This document shows positions 48,766 through 53,917 of a stretch of DNA of 64,000 nt, piece by piece (the first letter of the stretch is position 1; each line of letters begins with the position of its first letter). Source of the DNA: an uncultured Candidatus Saccharibacteria bacterium (lineage in GTDB: Bacteria; Patescibacteriota; Saccharimonadia; Saccharimonadales; JAGQNK01); assembly GCA_964636355.1 (NCBI GenBank), contig CAZWRG010000006.1, forward strand, positions 660 to 64,659. Direction: 5' to 3'. A program made the translations under genes and the position numbers. The notes beneath the pieces are model-generated. The model worked only from the letters and a program-made list of their open reading frames with translations. It had not been told where the DNA came from and ran no database searches.

Positions 48766-49290
48766 TTAGGCTGCGGCTTTAGCTTCTACGCCGTCAAGAA
48801 GTGCGTGCAAGTTGCCGGAAAGACCACTTGTTACATCGTTGACAGGTGAAAGCAATGTTGCAACCACTGAAGCGATGAGCTCATTCTTGCTTGGAAGCGC
48901 GGATAGAGCTTTCATTTCTTCAGCGCTGACAAACTTGCCTTCAGCGCTAATGCCACCAACAAACTGAATGGTTGGTTGGTCTTTAGCGAATTCTGCCAAG
49001 ACTTTGGCGGGTGCTACTTCGTCTTGGTTGTTGAATGCGTAGAGCAACATGCCGTTTAGCGCGCTGGTGTCGGCGCTCTTCAGGGTGTCGTTGCCTTGAA
49101 TGGCCTTGATGACCAATCGGTTTTTGACAACCTTTAAAACAGTGCCGTTGTCGCGTCCGCTGCGGCGCAGTGATTGCATCGCTTTTACAGGAGTACCCTG
49201 ATAAGCGGCCACAACAGTCATTTTTGAGTCGGCAAGCAAGCTGCTTACTTCATCGATGACTGCTTGTTTCTTGTCTTTAGTTAGTGCCAT
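48766..49290 (-). CDS. rplJ: 50S ribosomal protein L10
   Basis: 174 aa. KKQAVIDEV...VAAYQG...M..LR pattern. Lies upstream of rplL. Confidence 0.9.
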   Translation of the reverse strand: MALTKDKKQAVIDEVSSLLADSKMTVVAAYQGTPVKAMQSLRRSGRDNGTVLKVVKNRLVIKAIQGNDTLKSADTSALNGMLLYAFNNQDEVAPAKVLAEFAKDQPTIQFVGGISAEGKFVSAEEMKALSALPSKNELIASVVATLLSPVNDVTSGLSGNLHALLDGVEAKAAA

Positions 49291-49494
49291 TTATTGCCCT
49301 TCTTAAGAAATTTGAATTTCAATATCGACCTTATTGAAATTTTATCAATAAAAATTGACCTCCGTTACCAAAGGTCAATATGTGCTCACAAAACGTAAAA
49401 TGTATTGATCTAGCACCTCGGCGACACAATTAAGGATTACTCCAGTCGCTGTCTTTGGTAACAGATGGGAGTTTAGCAAACATTACGGCTAATG
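49291..49494 (-). promoter_or_regulatory. rplJ leader with terminator/antiterminator architecture (L10-leader-like)
   Basis: Terminator TTGACCT/AGGTCAA (49355-49378) followed by TTTTT on the minus strand. Its loop GTTACCAAA (49364-49372) is complementary to TTTGGTAAC (49454-49462) upstream. Confidence 0.5.
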
Positions 49495-49680
49495 TCAATC
49501 GGAGTATATCTCTTCTTGCTCAAAACATGCAGGGGCTGGTGGCTGGGAGCCATCTAATTCCATAGCGGTATTAGCTGATGTAGTCTCTAATCGATCCTGG
49601 GCTATTTCAAGCGCCAATTCGTTAGGTCTTTCAATGCGGCAACTTGGCCTCATTGGCTGACCTTCTGGTGTCCTGATCAT
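49495..49680 (-). CDS. Orphan small protein (61 aa)
   Basis: ATGA overlap with the upstream ORF 49677..50093. No family recognised. Confidence 0.35.
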   Translation of the reverse strand: MIRTPEGQPMRPSCRIERPNELALEIAQDRLETTSANTAMELDGSQPPAPACFEQEEIYSD

Positions 49681-50093
49681 GTCAATAACTCCTGTTGATA
49701 TTCTAATTTAATTTCTTCAGGCAAAATTATTTTACCCAGCACAAAACCTTCCTCAGCTTGACGGATATAGTTGAGCCCACTAACAGGTTCAACTTTGAAT
49801 GCAGACCTAACCACAAACGAAACAGCCTCCGACGGAGTTATGAGTTGGCTTGAATGAAGCGGCCTTACATCAGCCGTATTGTGGTTAGCCAGCCTTAACC
49901 GAAGCCACGGTTTATTGATATGCTGATTTGACTGGCGTGGGTACCAAACTTTCCAGTATGAAAATGGTTTAGCCAGGGGTTGCTCTGTGAGCTGCTGATC
50001 ATTAGTTCCCTGCTCAAAAAGCTCCCACATGGCGTCTCTATCGCTCGCTTCGTAAGATATTGTTGGTGGTGTATCGATTAGCTGCTTAGTCAT
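49677..50093 (-). CDS. Orphan protein (138 aa)
   Basis: Clean ORF in the orphan island. No SD. The ATG lies 6 nt after the terminator U-run. Confidence 0.45.
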   Translation of the reverse strand: MTKQLIDTPPTISYEASDRDAMWELFEQGTNDQQLTEQPLAKPFSYWKVWYPRQSNQHINKPWLRLRLANHNTADVRPLHSSQLITPSEAVSFVVRSAFKVEPVSGLNYIRQAEEGFVLGKIILPEEIKLEYQQELLT

Positions 50094-50098
50094 AGTAT

Positions 50099-50123
50099 TA
50101 AAAAAGACCCGGTTGGCGGGTCT
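50099..50123 (-). terminator. Internal terminator/attenuator within the orphan island
   Basis: AGACCCG (50105-50111) pairs with CGGGTCT (50117-50123). TTTTTT follows on the minus strand. Confidence 0.55.
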
Positions 50124-50149
50124 TTCAGAGATTACTTTACAAATATGTC

Positions 50150-50206
50150 TCAGTCCCGCTGGTGGCGAGTTTCAATAATCTTAATAATAATTGAAGTTAG
50201 AGACAT
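50150..50206 (-). CDS. Candidate micro-ORF (18 aa, MSLTSIIIKIIETRHQRD)
   Basis: AAAGGAGGA lies 9 nt upstream of the ATG at 50206. The stop is about 25 nt before the 50099-50123 terminator. Confidence 0.25.
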   Translation of the reverse strand: MSLTSIIIKIIETRHQRD

Positions 50207-50236
50207 GGTTCTATAATCCTCCTTTAGCGATGTTTG

Positions 50237-50467
50237 TCAAGTGTTTTTTGGGTCACATAGAAGCTCAGAGGTTATTACAACTTCTTTCTGGACCTCTGGC
50301 TGTGATGTATTGCTTTCTGGCGTGCCTATTTGGTCAGTACCGCGGGCGTGGCGAATAACTTCGCCGCCTGATTTTAGTCGTGAGATCTCTGCTCTGGACG
50401 CTCTCCAGGATTCATCGGATATTCCGTCTGGGCGGCTGATGCCAGTTGGTAATGGTTCAAATTCCAT
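50237..50467 (-). CDS. Orphan small protein (76 aa)
   Basis: Starts MEFE.. and contains AEISRL, like its upstream neighbour (MEFD.., AEISRH). This suggests weak paralogy. Confidence 0.4.
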   Translation of the reverse strand: MEFEPLPTGISRPDGISDESWRASRAEISRLKSGGEVIRHARGTDQIGTPESNTSQPEVQKEVVITSELLCDPKNT

Positions 50468-50493: not shown

Positions 50494-50742
50494 TTAAGCT
50501 GGCAGGTTAGCCCGAAAATCATCTGTGCGGTGTCTTGATATCTCGGCAGCCTCTGACTGGCTTCCATGACTTACAGATTGTGTAACCTCCTCACCACTCA
50601 TTGACTCAACTATTGCTACTTCAGCAGCCTTACGTGATGTGGCTGATCCGAATAGCGGAACAGCTCGATCAAATCTAACTACATCTGGCGGCTGGACGCC
50701 ACCATCCTTATGACCATTAATCCCATAATCATCAAATTCCAT
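50494..50742 (-). CDS. Orphan small protein (82 aa)
   Basis: AAGAGGAGAG RBS 4 nt upstream of the ATG. First gene behind the structured leader. Confidence 0.4.
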   Translation of the reverse strand: MEFDDYGINGHKDGGVQPPDVVRFDRAVPLFGSATSRKAAEVAIVESMSGEEVTQSVSHGSQSEAAEISRHRTDDFRANLPA

Positions 50743-50890
50743 AAAACTCTCCTCTTAAGTTAAATAAAGACCTCTTGAAGAAGCCTGATTTTGGGGCTGT
50801 GCTAAAGCGATTTACGCTCAGGCTTCAACCATGATGAAGCACAGCCCTGTAAGGCTGAGGAGGAGTTGCTTCATCAAAAAAGTTTTCATG
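50743..50890 (-). promoter_or_regulatory. Structured 5' leader with anti-SD and mutually exclusive helices
   Basis: P1 is 50833-50841/50867-50875, with an inner hairpin at 50842-50846/50853-50857. P2 is 50780-50788/50818-50826. A 9-nt alternative pairing joins 50794-50802 to 50839-50847. CUCCUC in the P1 internal loop is complementary to the GAGGAG SD. Confidence 0.4.
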
Positions 50891-50896
50891 ACAATT

Positions 50897-50947
50897 AAGA
50901 TAGACTATTTTTATTGACTTGACAAGAACTTTTTTGACGAGTAAAGT
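50897..50947. promoter_or_regulatory. Back-to-back divergent sigma70-like promoters sharing one -35 region
   Basis: Plus strand: TTGACA (50919-50924), 17 nt, TAAAGT (50942-50947). Minus strand: TTGTCA (50925-50920), 17 nt, TATCTT (50902-50897). Confidence 0.45.
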
Positions 50948-50953
50948 CTATGT

Positions 50954-51129
50954 TCGTGAGATCATTATTCCAGATTATTACTATCAAGCACCTCTGCCGT
51001 CCATACGGTTTCGTGTTTGTGATGGCAAAATAACTCTGGAATCCGAGTCTTCACACCAATAAATTAAATCGAGAAACATCAAAAAACCGGATTCCAAAAC
51101 AAGGAAGCCGGTTTTTTTAAGGAAAAATT
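50954..51129 (+). promoter_or_regulatory. Riboswitch-like leader (P1 / antiterminator / terminator) upstream of 51130..51567
   Basis: P1 is ATTCCAGA (50967-50974) with TCTGGAAT (51035-51042). The antiterminator is GGAATCCG (51038-51045) with CGGATTCC (51088-51095). The terminator spans 51085-51118 and ends in TTTTTTT, just before the RBS. Confidence 0.45.
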
Positions 51130-51567
51130 ATGTCTGTAGAAGCAATCGAAGGTTTAACTAGTAGTGATCTCAGCGGCGTTGAGCTGGCTATAGCGCGTGA
51201 AGATTTCTGCTGCGCGGTTAGATCTGGCGCTACATTAGAACACAAAGAAAGAGCACTTGATGAGTTTGTTAAGGCGCTTGGCGGAGCCTTCTTTGGCCAA
51301 ACAAGGATTGTGGAGGTTGAAACTGTCGATAGAGCGGCGGAATTGTTAGAAGTTCAGCTTGGTTGTTTGGCAACTGCCGGTAGTTTGTCTTCGGCCGCTG
51401 AAAGTACCCCAGGTCAAATACCTGAATTTAATCTCGAATTAATTTCAGAACATATTGAAGCTAACATGAGCTTAGGTGCGACGTTGCCAGCATCTGTTGA
51501 TCTTGCGGTTCGCAACATTGCCGAGCCTTATATCTATACCCCAGATACATCAACAGCTGCAGTTTAA
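51130..51567 (+). CDS. Orphan acidic protein (145 aa)
   Basis: AAGGAAAAATT-ATG RBS. Only long ORF in this interval. Convergent with tmk-thyX. Confidence 0.45.
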   Translation: MSVEAIEGLTSSDLSGVELAIAREDFCCAVRSGATLEHKERALDEFVKALGGAFFGQTRIVEVETVDRAAELLEVQLGCLATAGSLSSAAESTPGQIPEFNLELISEHIEANMSLGATLPASVDLAVRNIAEPYIYTPDTSTAAV

Positions 51568-51568
51568 T

Positions 51569-53917
51569 CTAAGATTTTTTGTCGAGTTGTTGGAGCTTAA
51601 ACTGAGTGGCCCGCTCGGCCGCCAAACGGGTTAGCTCCGGATCTTCGCCCTGGTTGACAAACTTCATGGCTTCTCCGAGCATCGGGTGAACCTCAGATAG
51701 TTTTTTATGCATTTCAAGCACTAGTTTTCGATATCCTGGATGGCCTTGAGGGCTGGTTCTAAGCTCATGAAGATGAAACGCCGCGCGGGCATTGTATGTG
51801 ACTTTCCAGCGCATTCGGTGGCCAAGCAAGGTGGCGTACTGAGCTTCGTACTCGTAACCGCGTGATTGAAGCTTGGAATAGAGCTCGGCTGATACATCAA
51901 AGCATTTTTCAAACAGATCTGATAAACCGGCTTCTTCTACCAAATCGGGAATTTCATAGCCATATCTTGGGGTTAGAGCTTGCCATTCCAGATCGTCAAC
52001 CATTCTATGCCGTTGCAGGTCACGGAAAATTCCATAATCACAAATTAAGTCCCAGCTGTAATGGGCGATTTCCAGTGCTCGGCCCGGGCGATGACGGCGA
52101 TTTAATCTTTCGCCGATATAAGCTTGGAAAACCTCTTGTTTTTGCTTGATTGGCCAGTCGGACACCTCATTTTGAATCTCTTGAAGCGACAAATTACTGG
52201 ATTCATAAAGCATGTGCGGAACCAGGTCGAGTTCGTTTCGCGGCCAAACATTCCTAAGAGCCACAGCCGTCTGATCAGTGCTGTGAATATCTGGTAAATA
52301 TTTTTCAGTTAGTTTTTTGATCTGTTGTTTAGTGTTTGCCAGATAGGCAGTCGTCGCGCCGCCGCGGTCTGGCTTGTCAGCTCTTTCTAGGAAGGTTGGA
52401 ATAATCTTCCGGGCTTCGGCAAGCAACGCATCGCCAGTTTGCTGTGCCTCCAGACTTTCGCTGGCTCTCAGCCGCATAATCATGCTTTCGAGCGCTTGAC
52501 CGCTGGCAAAAATACCAACCGTAGATTTTGTCGCCACTGGCAAGACCGGTCGTATAGCATCACAAGCCTGAGCTCTAATAGCACTTCGCCAAGCACCGTC
52601 TTGTTCTGATTTAGGAGTTGAAGAGTTGCTAGTTAGATAGGCCGTAAGCTCATGAACCATCGCTGAATAGCCCTCAAAAATTGTGTCCATGGCGTGGTTG
52701 TAGAGTTTTGTAGTAGGAGCATCAAAGTTCTTGGGCGTGAAATATTTATATTTCCCGGACTCGTCTTTTTGATCAAAATAAATATAGCGAGTTGATTGTT
52801 CCAAATAGGAAGCCAGCCGCCCCCATTCAAGTTGTTTGGTGAGCAAATTGCTGGCGTTTTCAACCACCAAATGCTGTCCAACCAATTGCTGTACTGAATC
52901 ATCGCCGTAAGCAGTAATTACTCTTTGCAGCAAACCTTCGTCCTTGCCGGCTGAAGCAGCAAATTCATCCAGGATAGTGATTCTCATGTCATCACCGCGC
53001 CGGCTAAGGCGAGCCATGGCTGCAGCGATTGTAAGAGTGCTCATTTTATCTGTAAAAGCATAAACATCGTTGTCTGAATTTGTGACTGCGGCGTCTAGGA
53101 ATGCATTGCCCTCGTCAGTTATTTCCCAGCCCTCGTCAGTTTTTTTAACAAATGGATTTGTTGTATCACGCTTCACAAAGTTTCCTTTCTGGGGCTGGTC
53201 TTTAGTATTGATCTTGGGCAGTAGTGGCTGCAGCGATTTCCATAAATGATCAGAAATTTGCTCGATACTCATTAACTTTTTATCACGAACACAATCAATT
53301 CGCATGAAATCTTTTGGGAATAATTGACACAAATCATCATAAACTTCGACTGATTTTTTGAGGTGATTAAGGTCTGCTTCGTGAATATCACGCTTTTTAT
53401 CGGTGTAGCTGCGCGCATCTTTTTGATCGACCAGCTGTTGAGCAATCTCGGCCGGCACCCGTAGAACAATGCTTTTATCTGGCCGGGGGATTTTAAGCAT
53501 TTCAAACTCTAAATTATCAAGCCAAATAAAATACCCGCGGCGTTCTTCTGGATGATTAAACTTTGTTCCCTGATGGGCCATGTTTGAGCCAGTAAATCGA
53601 TTGGCCAAAACAACTTTACCTGCCTCCAATGCTTGCCGGATTTTAGGCGCTGCTTCAAATCTATCAAGCGCGTAAAAAAGAGATCCGGTATACGGCCCAA
53701 CCTCATCGGCAGTTCCGTATTTGCCATTTAAATATTGTTTTACAAAATAGCTTGAGTCATTTTCGTATTGCGGAAAGTCAAAAAGCTCAACCTCATGACC
53801 GGCGTCAACTAGCCTCTCGGCCAATTTTTGAAACTGAGTTCCCTTGCCGGACCCATCAGTGCCTTCTATGACAATAAATGCTCCCTGTTTGGGCTGCGAT
53901 TTCTTGCGACCGATCAT
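51569..53917 (-). CDS. Fusion protein: thymidylate kinase (N-terminal) plus tandem ThyX-like FAD-dependent thymidylate synthase domains
   Basis: FIVIEGTDGSGKGTQ P-loop in residues 1 to about 215. A first ThyX-like half has a degenerate motif (WGRLASYLEQSTRY). A second half has the canonical RHRM...TPRY. Confidence 0.8.
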   Translation of the reverse strand: MIGRKKSQPKQGAFIVIEGTDGSGKGTQFQKLAERLVDAGHEVELFDFPQYENDSSYFVKQYLNGKYGTADEVGPYTGSLFYALDRFEAAPKIRQALEAGKVVLANRFTGSNMAHQGTKFNHPEERRGYFIWLDNLEFEMLKIPRPDKSIVLRVPAEIAQQLVDQKDARSYTDKKRDIHEADLNHLKKSVEVYDDLCQLFPKDFMRIDCVRDKKLMSIEQISDHLWKSLQPLLPKINTKDQPQKGNFVKRDTTNPFVKKTDEGWEITDEGNAFLDAAVTNSDNDVYAFTDKMSTLTIAAAMARLSRRGDDMRITILDEFAASAGKDEGLLQRVITAYGDDSVQQLVGQHLVVENASNLLTKQLEWGRLASYLEQSTRYIYFDQKDESGKYKYFTPKNFDAPTTKLYNHAMDTIFEGYSAMVHELTAYLTSNSSTPKSEQDGAWRSAIRAQACDAIRPVLPVATKSTVGIFASGQALESMIMRLRASESLEAQQTGDALLAEARKIIPTFLERADKPDRGGATTAYLANTKQQIKKLTEKYLPDIHSTDQTAVALRNVWPRNELDLVPHMLYESSNLSLQEIQNEVSDWPIKQKQEVFQAYIGERLNRRHRPGRALEIAHYSWDLICDYGIFRDLQRHRMVDDLEWQALTPRYGYEIPDLVEEAGLSDLFEKCFDVSAELYSKLQSRGYEYEAQYATLLGHRMRWKVTYNARAAFHLHELRTSPQGHPGYRKLVLEMHKKLSEVHPMLGEAMKFVNQGEDPELTRLAAERATQFKLQQLDKKS

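What the first reader, a model, noticed from the sequence alone, without database searches (positions are those of the whole stretch)
50954..51129. Riboswitch-like leader: P1 helix, overlapping antiterminator and terminator ahead of an orphan gene
Downstream of the plus-strand promoter, an 8-bp P1 helix pairs ATTCCAGA (50967-50974) with TCTGGAAT (51035-51042). It closes a ~60-nt element containing a GCCGUC/GAUGGC helix with an AUACG-GUUU-CGUGU hairpin and a 21-nt asymmetric loop. The 3' strand of P1 overlaps GGAATCCG (51038-51045). That sequence is perfectly complementary to the 5' arm of the terminator (CGGATTCC, 51088-95). The terminator spans 51085-51118 and ends in U7, 4 nt before the RBS of 51130..51567. 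P1 and the antiterminator are therefore mutually exclusive, which is the canonical OFF-switch layout. I do not recognise the core as any known riboswitch class.
Basis: seen in the sequence. Interest (0 to 1): 0.6.

Follow-up and report, generated by a model that had tools for sequence, protein, structure and literature searches.

The report
Leader-peptide transcription attenuator in Saccharibacteria

Summary
P1, the antiterminator, the U7 terminator and the promoter all sit at the stated coordinates. The leader folds far better than shuffles (z = -6.0). It matches no Rfam family.

The window comes from a Saccharibacteria (TM7) genome. Homologous leaders occur once per locus in about 32 related genomes. 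They always lie between a thyX-tmk fusion gene and rplJ, ahead of a fast-evolving orphan gene. The antiterminator (2:3), terminator (3:4) and P1 (1:2) pairings all covary.

The riboswitch reading is not supported. The invariant positions are a GTG/ATG 6-10 nt after the -10 box, an in-frame stop codon abutting region 2, and the cores of regions 2 and 3. Every member carries a leaderless 23-32-codon sORF. In the window it is 50956-51033 and encodes MRSLFQIITIKHLCRPYGFVFVMAK. This is the trp-type layout: a ribosome at the stop codon masks the antiterminator, and a lagging ribosome frees it.

Back to back on the other strand is a second leaderless attenuator. Its leader peptide is Leu-rich, and in 8 relatives it precedes a leuA-like gene.

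The signal sensed by the plus-strand leader is unknown, and nothing has been tested experimentally. Verdict: a new variant of a known kind, of moderate interest.

The parts
50919..50947 (+). Sigma-70-type promoter of the plus-strand leader. The -35 box TTGACA is at 50919-24 and the -10 box TAAAGT at 50942-47.
   Evidence: Promoter scan, 10 of 12 matches. TTGACAAg-N16/17-TAnAnT is conserved in all aligned members.
50956..51033 (+). Leaderless leader-peptide sORF. It starts at GTG 50956, 9 nt after the -10 box, has 25 codons (MRSLFQIITIKHLCRPYGFVFVMAK) and stops at TAA 51031-33.
   Evidence: An sORF of 23-32 codons is present at this position in 23/23 members, 7/7 out-of-sample members and L204. 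The start-to-region-2 distance takes every value from 78 to 87 nt, yet the stop next to region 2 is in frame in 21/23. The substitution-based coding signal is weak.
50967..50974 (+). It lies inside sORF codons 4-7. The extended 5' strand of the hairpin runs 50956-50979.
   Evidence: I13. Cognate 1:2 duplexes are stronger than non-cognate ones, -15.4 vs -11.3 kcal/mol, 0/20000 permutations. The column-wise test on a MAFFT-only alignment was inconclusive.
50996..51009 (+). Apical hairpin GCCGU-CCAU-ACGGU inside the sORF. It may act as an RNA polymerase pause hairpin.
   Evidence: MFE fold. 76% paired, with 10 double-change cells vs 3.7 +/- 1.4 in shuffles.
51035..51045 (+). Region 2 (UCUGGAAUCCG). 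It is the 3' strand of P1 and also the 5' strand of the antiterminator. It begins 1 nt after the sORF stop codon.
   Evidence: (I12, I13).
51047..51054 (+). GUCUUCAC, which pairs with the 5'-terminal GUGAGAU (start codon and following bases) and closes the long hairpin.
   Evidence: MFE fold. The first base of the start codon covaries with its partner (GC 13, GU 6, AU 3, UA 1), and all three ATG starts sit opposite U.
51055..51080 (+). A-rich, unstructured spacer between region 2 and the terminator.
   Evidence: Unpaired in the MFE fold. Variable in sequence and length across members.
51081..51118 (+). Intrinsic terminator. Region 3 is the 5' arm, with core CCGGAUUCC at 51087-95. Region 4 is GGAAGCCGG at 51103-11. 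The U7 tract is 51112-18.
   Evidence: I1. Conserved with covariation: terminator helix 80.7% paired with 7 pairs changed on both sides. Cognate arms pair at -16.5 vs -11.5 kcal/mol.
51119..51567 (+). Regulated gene: Shine-Dalgarno AAGGAA at 51119-24 and the 145-aa ORF at 51130..51567. It is a fast-evolving, predicted helical protein of unknown function.
   Evidence: Its homolog P0005 in L204 is preceded by the same leader.
50761..50925 (-). Twin attenuator on the other strand.
- Promoter: -35 TTGTCA 50925-50920 and -10 TATCTT 50902-50897.
- Leaderless sORF 50889-50818 (MKTFLMKQLLLSLTGLCFIMVEA*).
- The stop codon lies inside GAAGCCUGA (50826-18), which pairs with the terminator 5' arm UCAGGCUUC (50788-80).
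- Terminator 50786-50768 plus a U-rich tail to 50761.
- Then the RBS and ORF82 (50742..50494).

Best explanation
The element is a ribosome-mediated (leader-peptide) transcription attenuator of the trp/leu type. It is built on a leaderless small ORF and controls read-through into the orphan gene 51130..51567.

Proposed mechanism:
1. Transcription starts about 7-9 nt after the -10 box, at or next to GUG 50956. The mRNA therefore begins with the start codon of a 25-codon sORF.
2. The sORF contains region 1 (50967-74) and ends at UAA 51031-33, one nucleotide before region 2 (51035-45).
3. If translation keeps pace with RNA polymerase, the ribosome reaches the stop codon and covers region 2. Region 3 then pairs with region 4, the terminator forms, and transcription stops at U7 (51112-18).
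4. If the ribosome lags or stalls within the first half of the sORF, it melts the region 1:2 hairpin and leaves region 2 free. Region 2 captures region 3 before region 4 is made. The terminator cannot form, and polymerase reads into the Shine-Dalgarno sequence and ORF145.
5. With no ribosome at all, the window's RNA folds into the long 1:2 hairpin plus the terminator, which is the OFF state.

Status of each element:
- Shown computationally: conservation and covariation of 1:2, 2:3 and 3:4; the conserved promoter; the conserved in-frame sORF; and its stop placed against region 2.
- Inferred: the leaderless start, translation of the sORF, and the kinetic competition.
- Unknown: the physiological signal. 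The candidates are general translation or aminoacyl-tRNA supply, with Ile and Cys codons over-represented, or an arrest-type action of the conserved C-terminal peptide CRxYGFVLIMAK.
For: Family and context:
- The leader occurs once per locus in 32 solid members, always in the same orientation between thyX-tmk and rplJ. There is one copy in the 64-kb window.

Pairings:
- Antiterminator 2:3. RNAalifold picks it unprompted on a sequence-only alignment. On A3 it is 82.5% paired with 17 double-change cells vs 7.7 +/- 2.3, 0/500. On the CM alignment A6, where this helix was not modelled, it is 81.4% paired vs 73.5 +/- 1.2, with 26 double-change cells vs 9.5 +/- 2.5, 0/500, and slid registers reach at most 52%.
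- Cognate versus non-cognate duplex energies: 1:2 z = -7.3, 2:3 z = -7.4, 3:4 z = -8.1, each 0/20000 permutations. The 1:4 control is not significant.
- The whole terminated-state structure has 115 double-change cells vs 61 +/- 6.4, 0/500.

sORF:
- It is present in 23/23 members, 7/7 out-of-sample members and L204, with GTG/ATG 6-10 nt after the -10 box.
- The start-to-region-2 distance spans all residues mod 3 (78-87 nt). Even so, 22 of 25 stop triplets within 10 nt upstream of region 2 are in frame 0, and frame 0 never has an earlier stop.
- Entropy by codon position is 1.23/1.12/1.40.

Constrained folding of the nascent transcript (region 4 not yet made):
- With a ribosome at codon 9, 2:3 forms in 29/30 members.
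- With a ribosome at the stop codon, 2:3 is absent in 26/30.

Context:
- The back-to-back element on the other strand is a clear Leu-leader attenuator. Leu sits at 5 conserved codons with synonymous variation.
- In 8 relatives the next gene is a 2-isopropylmalate-synthase-like gene (NF002086, E = 1.8e-72).
- The 387-nt intergenic region has 1 change between two strains that differ by 1.9% overall.

Precedents:
- Leaderless leader peptides are known (PMC4007540; 10.1101/834739).
- A riboswitch candidate was re-read as a uORF attenuator by the same in-frame start/stop criterion (PMC10272879).
Against: - There is no run of codons for a single amino acid, unlike classic attenuators. Enrichments are modest: Cys about 9x but usually a single codon, and Ile 1.8x.
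- The substitution-based coding signal is weak. On the nucleotide alignment, frame 0 is not better than frame +1 in synonymous fraction, 0.181 vs 0.199. Frame +2 is also free of stops in 13/23 members.
- Peptide conservation is entangled with RNA helices. For example, C-R-x-Y-G overlaps the GCCG/CGG hairpin, so it cannot be credited to the peptide alone.
- The leaderless GUG start rests only on a predicted promoter. The start codon is itself base-paired in the folded RNA.
- At full-length equilibrium the terminator remains the MFE in 25/30 members even when region 1 is masked, so the switch has to be kinetic.
- In 21/30 members the nascent transcript pairs 2:3 even without a ribosome. The 'no translation = OFF' branch therefore holds for the window but not for the whole family.
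- The regulated gene is not biosynthetic, so no obvious logic links a particular amino acid to it.
- There is no experimental evidence of any kind.
Confidence: 0.7

Rival explanations
1. It is a metabolite-binding riboswitch of a new class. The long hairpin (50956-51054) would be an aptamer whose ligand-bound form stabilises P1, frees region 3 and lets the terminator form. The sORF would be incidental.
For: - The OFF-switch topology is real and covaries.
- The hairpin has conserved internal loops and an apical hairpin kept by compensatory change.
- The substitution-based coding signal is weak.
- Much of the peptide conservation could be a by-product of the helices.
Against: - No Rfam match, even at E <= 10.
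- The invariant positions are the start codon, the stop codon and the cores of regions 2 and 3, not unpaired junction nucleotides.
- The interior of the hairpin differs greatly between members in sequence and length.
- An incidental ORF would not stay in frame while the start-to-region-2 distance takes all values mod 3.
- It would not start at the predicted +1 in every member either.
- The neighbouring twin element is a leader-peptide attenuator.
Confidence: 0.1
2. It is an independent small gene. The promoter-to-terminator unit (about 165 nt) would encode a 25-aa hydrophobic or basic micropeptide, or a trans-acting sRNA, and would end at a constitutive terminator. ORF145 would be expressed only by leak-through or from another start. 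This includes the idea of a type I toxin-like peptide.
For: - The unit is compact, with its own strong promoter and a strong terminator.
- The peptide has a conserved C-terminal motif and is depleted in Asp and Glu.
- Attenuator-derived RNAs and leader peptides can act in trans (PMC7298713, PMC7968998).
Against: - A constitutive terminator needs no upstream segment that covaries with its 5' arm. The 2:3 covariation and the stop codon abutting region 2 point to regulated termination.
- In most members the downstream gene's Shine-Dalgarno sequence follows within a few nucleotides of the U tract, with no separate promoter.
- No antisense or complementary partner RNA was seen.
- The fixed chromosomal position across an order-level clade is unlike toxin-antitoxin loci.
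Confidence: 0.1
3. It is a protein- or tRNA-dependent antitermination leader. A trans factor would bind the hairpin or region 2 and decide between the antiterminator and the terminator. Candidates are the product of the downstream gene, a ribosomal protein as in the nearby L10 leader, or an uncharged tRNA.
For: - The three-helix switch is compatible with any effector.
- An L10 leader (RF00557) lies 1.5 kb away, which shows that such leaders are used in this genome.
Against: - There is no T-box or other Rfam match, and no specifier or T-box sequence.
- The downstream genes belong to at least two unrelated, fast-evolving families while the leader is conserved. This argues against autoregulation by the product.
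- This idea does not explain the conserved in-frame sORF.
Confidence: 0.07

Closest known systems
Classical leader-peptide transcription attenuators of amino-acid operons (E. coli trpL, leuL, hisL, ilvL; Yanofsky model)
   Same: - An sORF in the leader.
- Regions 1-4 with mutually exclusive 1:2, 2:3 and 3:4 pairings.
- Region 1 lies inside the sORF.
- The stop codon is placed so that a terminating ribosome masks region 2.
- An intrinsic terminator with a U tract sits just before the structural gene.
   Different: - The sORF has no Shine-Dalgarno sequence and appears to start at the 5' end of the transcript (GUG).
- There is no run of regulatory codons for one amino acid.
- The regulated gene is a fast-evolving orphan, not a biosynthetic operon.
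- There is no sequence similarity to these leaders and no Rfam leader family match.
Leaderless leader peptides: the 14 predicted in Deinococcus deserti (PMC4007540) and the cysteine-responsive leaderless sORFs of mycobacteria (bioRxiv 10.1101/834739)
   Same: - The transcript begins with AUG or GUG of a short ORF.
- Translation of that ORF is proposed, and in mycobacteria shown, to attenuate the downstream genes.
   Different: - Those peptides are rich in the cognate amino acid (for example poly-Cys) and precede tRNA-synthetase or biosynthesis genes.
- The peptide here usually has a single Cys and a conserved C-terminal motif.
- The start codon is itself paired at the base of the 1:2 hairpin.
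- The phylum differs (Patescibacteria/CPR).
ilvB-II motif of Corynebacterium (PMC10272879)
   Same: [quoted passage not shown]
   Different: The ilvB-II peptide is enriched in branched-chain amino acids and sits before ilvBNC. Here the target is an orphan gene and Ile enrichment is only 1.8x.
Ribosome-mediated, antibiotic- or translation-stress-responsive attenuators (B. subtilis bmrCD leader, PMC4191407; mef/mel, PMC4335068)
   Same: The leader peptide has no amino-acid-specific codon run. Any slowing of the ribosome on the sORF favours the antiterminator and induces the downstream gene.
   Different: Those control resistance transporters and have Shine-Dalgarno-led sORFs. Nothing links ORF145 to drug resistance.
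Transcriptional OFF riboswitches with a terminator expression platform
   Same: The 3' strand of P1 overlaps an antiterminator strand that competes with an intrinsic terminator.
   Different: There is no conserved ligand-pocket core and no match to any Rfam class. The 'aptamer' is an open reading frame.

Membership tests
Ribosome-mediated (leader-peptide) transcription attenuator | A short ORF in the leader, with start and in-frame stop conserved across homologs | tested here: met
   The sORF is present in 23/23 members, 7/7 out-of-sample members and L204. Of 25 stop triplets next to region 2, 22 are in frame although the start-to-region-2 distance varies over 78-87 nt.
Ribosome-mediated (leader-peptide) transcription attenuator | An intrinsic terminator between the sORF and the structural gene | tested here: met
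   A hairpin followed by U5-9 in all members. It is 80.7% paired with 7 pairs changed on both sides.
Ribosome-mediated (leader-peptide) transcription attenuator | An antiterminator (2:3) mutually exclusive with the terminator and supported by covariation | tested here: met
   (0/500 shuffles; slid registers much lower). One search gives z = -7.4.
Ribosome-mediated (leader-peptide) transcription attenuator | Region 1 lies inside the sORF and pairs with region 2 (anti-antiterminator or pause hairpin) | tested here: met
   The per-genome duplex test gives z = -7.3, 0/20000. The CM alignment supports it (alignment fitted to the structure). The column-wise test on a MAFFT-only alignment was inconclusive, because the register of region 1 in the sORF varies.
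Ribosome-mediated (leader-peptide) transcription attenuator | The stop codon is positioned so that a terminating ribosome covers region 2 | tested here: met
   The stop lies -2 to +6 nt from region 2 in 21/23 members. With a ribosome footprint at the stop codon, 2:3 is absent in 26/30 members.
Ribosome-mediated (leader-peptide) transcription attenuator | A run of regulatory codons cognate to the controlled pathway | tested here: not met
   No run is present. Cys is 9x enriched (about one codon per peptide), Ile 1.8x, Met 2.3x and His 2.1x. The controlled gene has no known pathway. This feature defines the amino-acid subclass, not ribosome-mediated attenuators in general; compare bmrCD (PMC4191407).
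Ribosome-mediated (leader-peptide) transcription attenuator | The sORF is translated, and termination depends on its translation | not testable with these tools
   This needs ribosome profiling or toeprinting, Term-seq and reporter mutagenesis.
Metabolite-binding riboswitch | Match to a described riboswitch class | tested here: not met
   Rfam 15 at the gathering threshold on the whole window, and at E <= 10 on 50700-51300, returned no riboswitch family.
Metabolite-binding riboswitch | Highly conserved unpaired nucleotides in junctions or loops that form a ligand pocket | tested here: not met
   The invariant and near-invariant columns are the start codon, the stop codon, the region 2 GGA, the region 3 UCC and the U tract. 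The hairpin interior is variable in sequence and length.
Metabolite-binding riboswitch | An expression platform with competing terminator and antiterminator | tested here: met
Metabolite-binding riboswitch | Direct, specific ligand binding by the RNA | not testable with these tools
   This needs in-line probing, ITC or SHAPE with candidate ligands.
Type I toxin-antitoxin locus | A small hydrophobic toxin ORF plus an antisense or divergently encoded complementary RNA | tested here: not met
   No extended complementarity was found between the two divergent transcripts or elsewhere in 50700-51200. The peptide carries charged K, H and R residues in the middle. The chromosomal position is fixed in 32 genomes.

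The most novel reading that the evidence does not exclude
The conserved C-terminal half of the leader peptide (…AKH[IV]CRxYGFVL[IV]MAK*) could be a nascent-chain sensor, an arrest peptide of the TnaC/SpeFL kind. It would stall the ribosome in response to a small molecule, possibly derived from the host. A parasitic Saccharibacterium would then use a leaderless arrest peptide to switch on a fast-evolving gene that may be involved in host interaction. My evidence does not exclude this. The peptide motif is conserved, Asp and Glu are almost absent, and no codon run explains the sensing. However, the same nucleotides are also constrained by RNA helices.
Probability: 0.1. Interest if true: 0.75.

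Novelty: new variant of a known kind. Interest (0 to 1): 0.45.

Why it matters
Saccharibacteria and other CPR/Patescibacteria are ultra-small epibionts with reduced genomes. Almost nothing is known about how they regulate genes. I found no report of leader-peptide attenuation in this group.

If the model is right, these organisms keep two back-to-back leaderless attenuators that share one near-palindromic -35 box:
- One is a Leu-sensing leader that precedes a leuA-like gene in some lineages.
- The other is the present leader, which gates a rapidly evolving orphan gene in response to the state of translation.

That would give a directly testable handle on how a parasite that imports its amino acids senses starvation. 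It would also define a family of conserved cis-regulatory RNAs for annotating CPR genomes. Finally, it is a reminder that riboswitch-like leaders should be checked for in-frame sORFs before they are called new riboswitch classes.

Tried and rejected
1. Known RNA families. Rfam at the gathering threshold and at E <= 10 found nothing relevant for either strand. ARAGORN found no tmRNA or tRNA here. I had considered tmRNA, RNase P, 6S and SRP RNA because of the conserved 5' piece plus a terminator. They were rejected on these results and on the structure.

2. Collecting orthologous leaders through ORF145. The indexed protein search found only the protein itself. I used the neighbouring thyX-tmk fusion instead.

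3. Function of ORF145.
- Pfam and NCBIfam gave nothing.
- Single-sequence AlphaFold gave pLDDT 42.7, too poor for a fold search.
- The exhaustive HMMER search gave two weak true homologs and a weak resemblance of residues 59-102 to LysM repeats. I kept the LysM resemblance only as a lead.

4. leuA remnant. tblastn of LeuA-like proteins against the window found none.

5. Metagenome pattern scan. The pattern was TTGGARTCC-N30-60-CCGGAYTCCAA. It is nearly palindromic and mostly hit an unrelated 72-nt inverted repeat. Only L178 was a true member.

6. Column-wise covariation of P1 on MAFFT-only alignments. RNAalifold found no pairs and the pair count was inconclusive. The per-genome duplex test and a CM alignment were used instead.

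7. Equilibrium folding with region 1 masked. The terminator stayed in 25/30 members, so the switch cannot be thermodynamic. The nascent-transcript test was the informative one.

8. RNAcode-like synonymous/BLOSUM frame tests on the plus sORF. They favoured frame 0 on a peptide-guided alignment, which is biased. They did not favour it on the nucleotide alignment. I treat them as inconclusive.

9. Type I toxin-antitoxin and independent sRNA readings. Both were considered and ranked low; see the rival explanations.
Full report
**1. The observation**

- ATTCCAGA (50967-74) pairs perfectly with TCTGGAAT (51035-42).
- TGGAATCCG (51037-45) is perfectly complementary to CGGATTCCA (51088-96).
- The terminator arms are 51081-95 and 51103-17. 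They carry one A/G mismatch and are followed by U7 (51112-18).
- AAGGAA follows directly, and the ATG is at 51130.
- A TTGACA-17-TAAAGT promoter match lies at 50919-47.

The RNA 50954-51125 folds to -50.4 kcal/mol, against -30.2 +/- 3.4 for shuffles (z = -6.0). The MFE shows that P1 is the core of a roughly 100-nt irregular hairpin (50956-51054). An A-rich spacer and the terminator follow it. No Rfam family matches on either strand.

**2. Origin and homologs**

The neighbouring genes are rplL, rplJ with an L10 leader (RF00557), a thymidylate-kinase/ThyX fusion and a dCTP deaminase. The thyX-tmk fusion retrieved 80 loci, almost all labelled Saccharibacteria or Saccharimonadales, at 66-78% protein identity.

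The order thyX-tmk ... rplJ-rplL is conserved, but the genes in between are not. ORF145 (51130..51567) has no relative in the indexed 5.8-billion-protein search except itself. Even so, most loci carry a different ORF, convergent with thyX, at the same position.

Many of these ORFs are preceded by the same kind of terminator. Profile and covariance-model searches found the leader once per locus in 32 solid members, and once in the 64-kb window. One member, L204, was reached independently. It lies upstream of P0005, one of two weak true homologs of ORF145 found by exhaustive HMMER.

**3. The three alternative helices are conserved through compensatory change**

- Antiterminator 2:3.
  - On a sequence-only MAFFT alignment of 23 members, RNAalifold picked this helix by itself.
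  - Its nine pairs are 82.5% paired, with 17 double-change cells against 7.7 +/- 2.3 in shuffles (0/500). All slid registers score much lower.
  - On the CM alignment of 35 matches this helix was not part of the model. There it is 81.4% paired against 73.5 +/- 1.2, with 26 double-change cells against 9.5 +/- 2.5 (0/500).
- Cognate versus non-cognate partners. I compared the duplex energy of each genome's own partners with non-cognate partners.
  - 1:2 gives -15.4 vs -11.3 kcal/mol, 2:3 gives -15.6 vs -11.4, and 3:4 gives -16.5 vs -11.5.
  - Each is 0/20000 permutations. The 1:4 control is not significant.
- Terminated-state structure. The long hairpin plus terminator has 115 double-change cells against 61 +/- 6.4. 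That alignment was fitted to this structure.
- P1 on MAFFT-only alignments. A column-wise test was inconclusive, because the register of region 1 varies between members.
- Inner hairpin.

**4.

In all members, TTGACAAg-N16/17-TAnAnT is followed 6-10 nt later by GTG or ATG. From that codon an ORF of 23-32 codons runs through region 1. It stops -2 to +6 nt from region 2 in 21 of 23 members; the other two read through region 2. All 7 out-of-sample members and L204 show the same layout.

In the window the sORF is GTG 50956 to TAA 51031-33. It encodes MRSLFQIITIKHLCRPYGFVFVMAK. The family consensus is M[KN]x[LI]xQxxIIAKH[IV]CRxYGFVL[IV]MAK.

The strongest argument for translation uses landmarks from the nucleotide alignment.
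- The distance from the start codon to the region 2 anchor takes every value from 78 to 87 nt.
- Yet 22 of the 25 stop triplets within 10 nt upstream of region 2 are in frame with the start.
- Frame 0 never contains an earlier stop.

The start codon also covaries with a downstream partner: GUG with CAC, and AUG with CAU.

Substitution-based coding tests are weak. Entropy by codon position is 1.23/1.12/1.40. Frame 0 wins on a peptide-guided alignment, but not clearly on the nucleotide alignment. Peptide and helices constrain the same bases, for example C-R-x-Y-G and the GCCG/CGG hairpin. How far the peptide sequence itself matters therefore remains open.

**5. Mechanism**

The layout is the trp-type attenuator. 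Region 1 lies in the sORF, the stop codon abuts region 2, regions 3 and 4 form the terminator, and the structural gene's Shine-Dalgarno sequence comes immediately after.

I folded the nascent transcript up to the terminator loop, with region 4 not yet made.
- With a ribosome footprint at codon 9, 2:3 forms in 29/30 members.
- With a footprint at the stop codon, 2:3 is absent in 26/30.

At full-length equilibrium the terminator stays the MFE in 25/30 even with region 1 masked. The decision must therefore be kinetic, as it is in the classical systems. Without any ribosome, the window's RNA keeps region 2 in P1, which is the OFF state. In 21/30 members, however, 2:3 forms anyway. The robust, family-wide rule is that a ribosome at the stop codon causes termination.

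The signal is not identified. There is no single-amino-acid codon run. Cys is 9-fold over-represented (about one codon per peptide, at varying positions), Ile 1.8-fold, and Asp and Glu are nearly absent.

**6. Context that supports the reading**

The most widely conserved part of the intergenic region is 50780-50869. It reaches 80-94% nucleotide identity in more than 45 genomes. On the minus strand it is a second leaderless attenuator.
- Its promoter uses the reverse complement of the same near-palindromic -35 box (TTGTCA 50925-20; -10 TATCTT 50902-897).
- Its sORF is 50889-50818 (MKTFLMKQLLLSLTGLCFIMVEA). The consensus is ...LLL[G/S]LxGLCFSMVEA.
- Five Leu codons are conserved through synonymous CTC/CTA/CTT changes.
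- The stop codon lies inside GAAGCCUGA, which pairs with the 5' arm of the terminator.
- In 8 loci, including the window's closest relatives L005 and L006, the next gene resembles 2-isopropylmalate synthase, with the catalytic domain only (NF002086, E = 1.8e-72, below the curated cut-off).
- The window has no trace of that gene. It has ORF82 instead.

The locus is therefore a pair of divergent leader-peptide attenuators. Between two strains that differ by 1.9% overall, the 387-nt intergenic region has a single change.

**7. Comparison with what is known, and novelty**

Leader-peptide attenuation is textbook. Leaderless leader peptides have been predicted in Deinococcus deserti (PMC4007540) and studied in mycobacteria (10.1101/834739). 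A Corynebacterium riboswitch candidate was re-read as a uORF attenuator on the same in-frame start/stop criterion (PMC10272879).

I found no report for Saccharibacteria, and no Rfam family. The differences from the classical cases are:
- the leaderless GUG start, paired at the base of the hairpin;
- the lack of a regulatory codon run;
- a conserved peptide motif;
- the back-to-back twin arrangement with a shared -35 box;
- a fast-evolving orphan target.

I classify it as a new variant of a known kind. My confidence is 0.7 for the leader-peptide mechanism, and about 0.85 that it is a conditional terminator of some kind. Nothing here has been tested experimentally.

**8. Function of the regulated gene**

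The function of the regulated gene is unknown.
- Pfam and NCBIfam are empty for it and for 20 positional counterparts.
- The counterparts fall into at least two unrelated families.
- AlphaFold without an alignment is unusable, at pLDDT 42.7.
- Residues 59-102 resemble LysM repeats of two metagenomic proteins (36% identity over 44 residues). This is a lead only.

Noticed in passing
window 50761-50925 (minus strand): A second leaderless leader-peptide attenuator, more widely conserved than the finding itself (more than 45 genomes). Its sORF (50889-50818) has a conserved Leu run. Its stop codon lies inside a segment that pairs with the terminator's 5' arm. In 8 related loci it precedes a 2-isopropylmalate-synthase-like gene. 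It matches no Rfam family.
   Followed up: yes
window 50918-50926: The near-palindrome CTTGACAAG appears to serve as the -35 box for both divergent promoters: TTGACA on the plus strand and TTGTCA on the minus strand. It is conserved in the relatives.
   Followed up: partly
window 50494-50742 (minus strand, ORF82): ORF82 has no database family. The first ORFs after the minus-strand attenuator in many loci share a C-terminal signature..PY[AS]GTE.. then [FW]xAN[LM][IP][AP]-stop. Between two strains that differ by 1.9% overall, this ORF differs by about 12%. It looks like a rapidly diversifying small protein.
   Followed up: partly
L005, L006, L009, L040, L041, L069, L080, L083 (downstream of the minus-strand element): A LeuA-like gene of about 390 aa has only the catalytic domain and lacks the C-terminal regulatory domain. 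It occurs in Saccharibacteria, a group thought to lack amino-acid biosynthesis. It is absent from the window.
   Followed up: partly
window 49495-50467 (minus strand): Three further ORFs of 61, 138 and 76 aa lie between ORF82 and the L10 leader. They have no Pfam hit and no tblastn match in any of the 80 related loci.
   Followed up: no
window 49340-49476 (minus strand): Rfam L10_leader (RF00557, 59.7 bits) lies upstream of rplJ (48766..49290) and rplL.
   Followed up: no
window 51569-53917 (minus strand): A 782-aa fusion of thymidylate kinase (N-terminal) and a ThyX flavin-dependent thymidylate synthase with duplicated Thy1 matches. It is conserved across the 80 Saccharibacteria loci, and a dCTP-deaminase gene follows it.
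   Followed up: no
window 51130-51567, residues 59-102 of ORF145: A weak but repeated similarity to the LysM repeats of two metagenomic proteins (P0002, P0003; 36% identity over 44 residues). Pfam LysM itself does not hit ORF145.
   Followed up: partly
L059 8413-8504 and 12313-12411; L069 11086-11177 and 12460-12529: Two copies of the minus-strand Leu-type leader occur in one locus. In L059 the second copy lies after rplL, and the two copies precede different genes (123 aa and 216 aa).
   Followed up: no
L084, L086, L090, L096-L100, L113 and others (metagenomes Ga0105044-49, Ga0335394): An unrelated inverted repeat of about 72 nt, of the form TTGGARTCC...GGAYTCCAA, sometimes occurs several times per contig. 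It was picked up by the pattern scan. Its origin is unknown.
   Followed up: no
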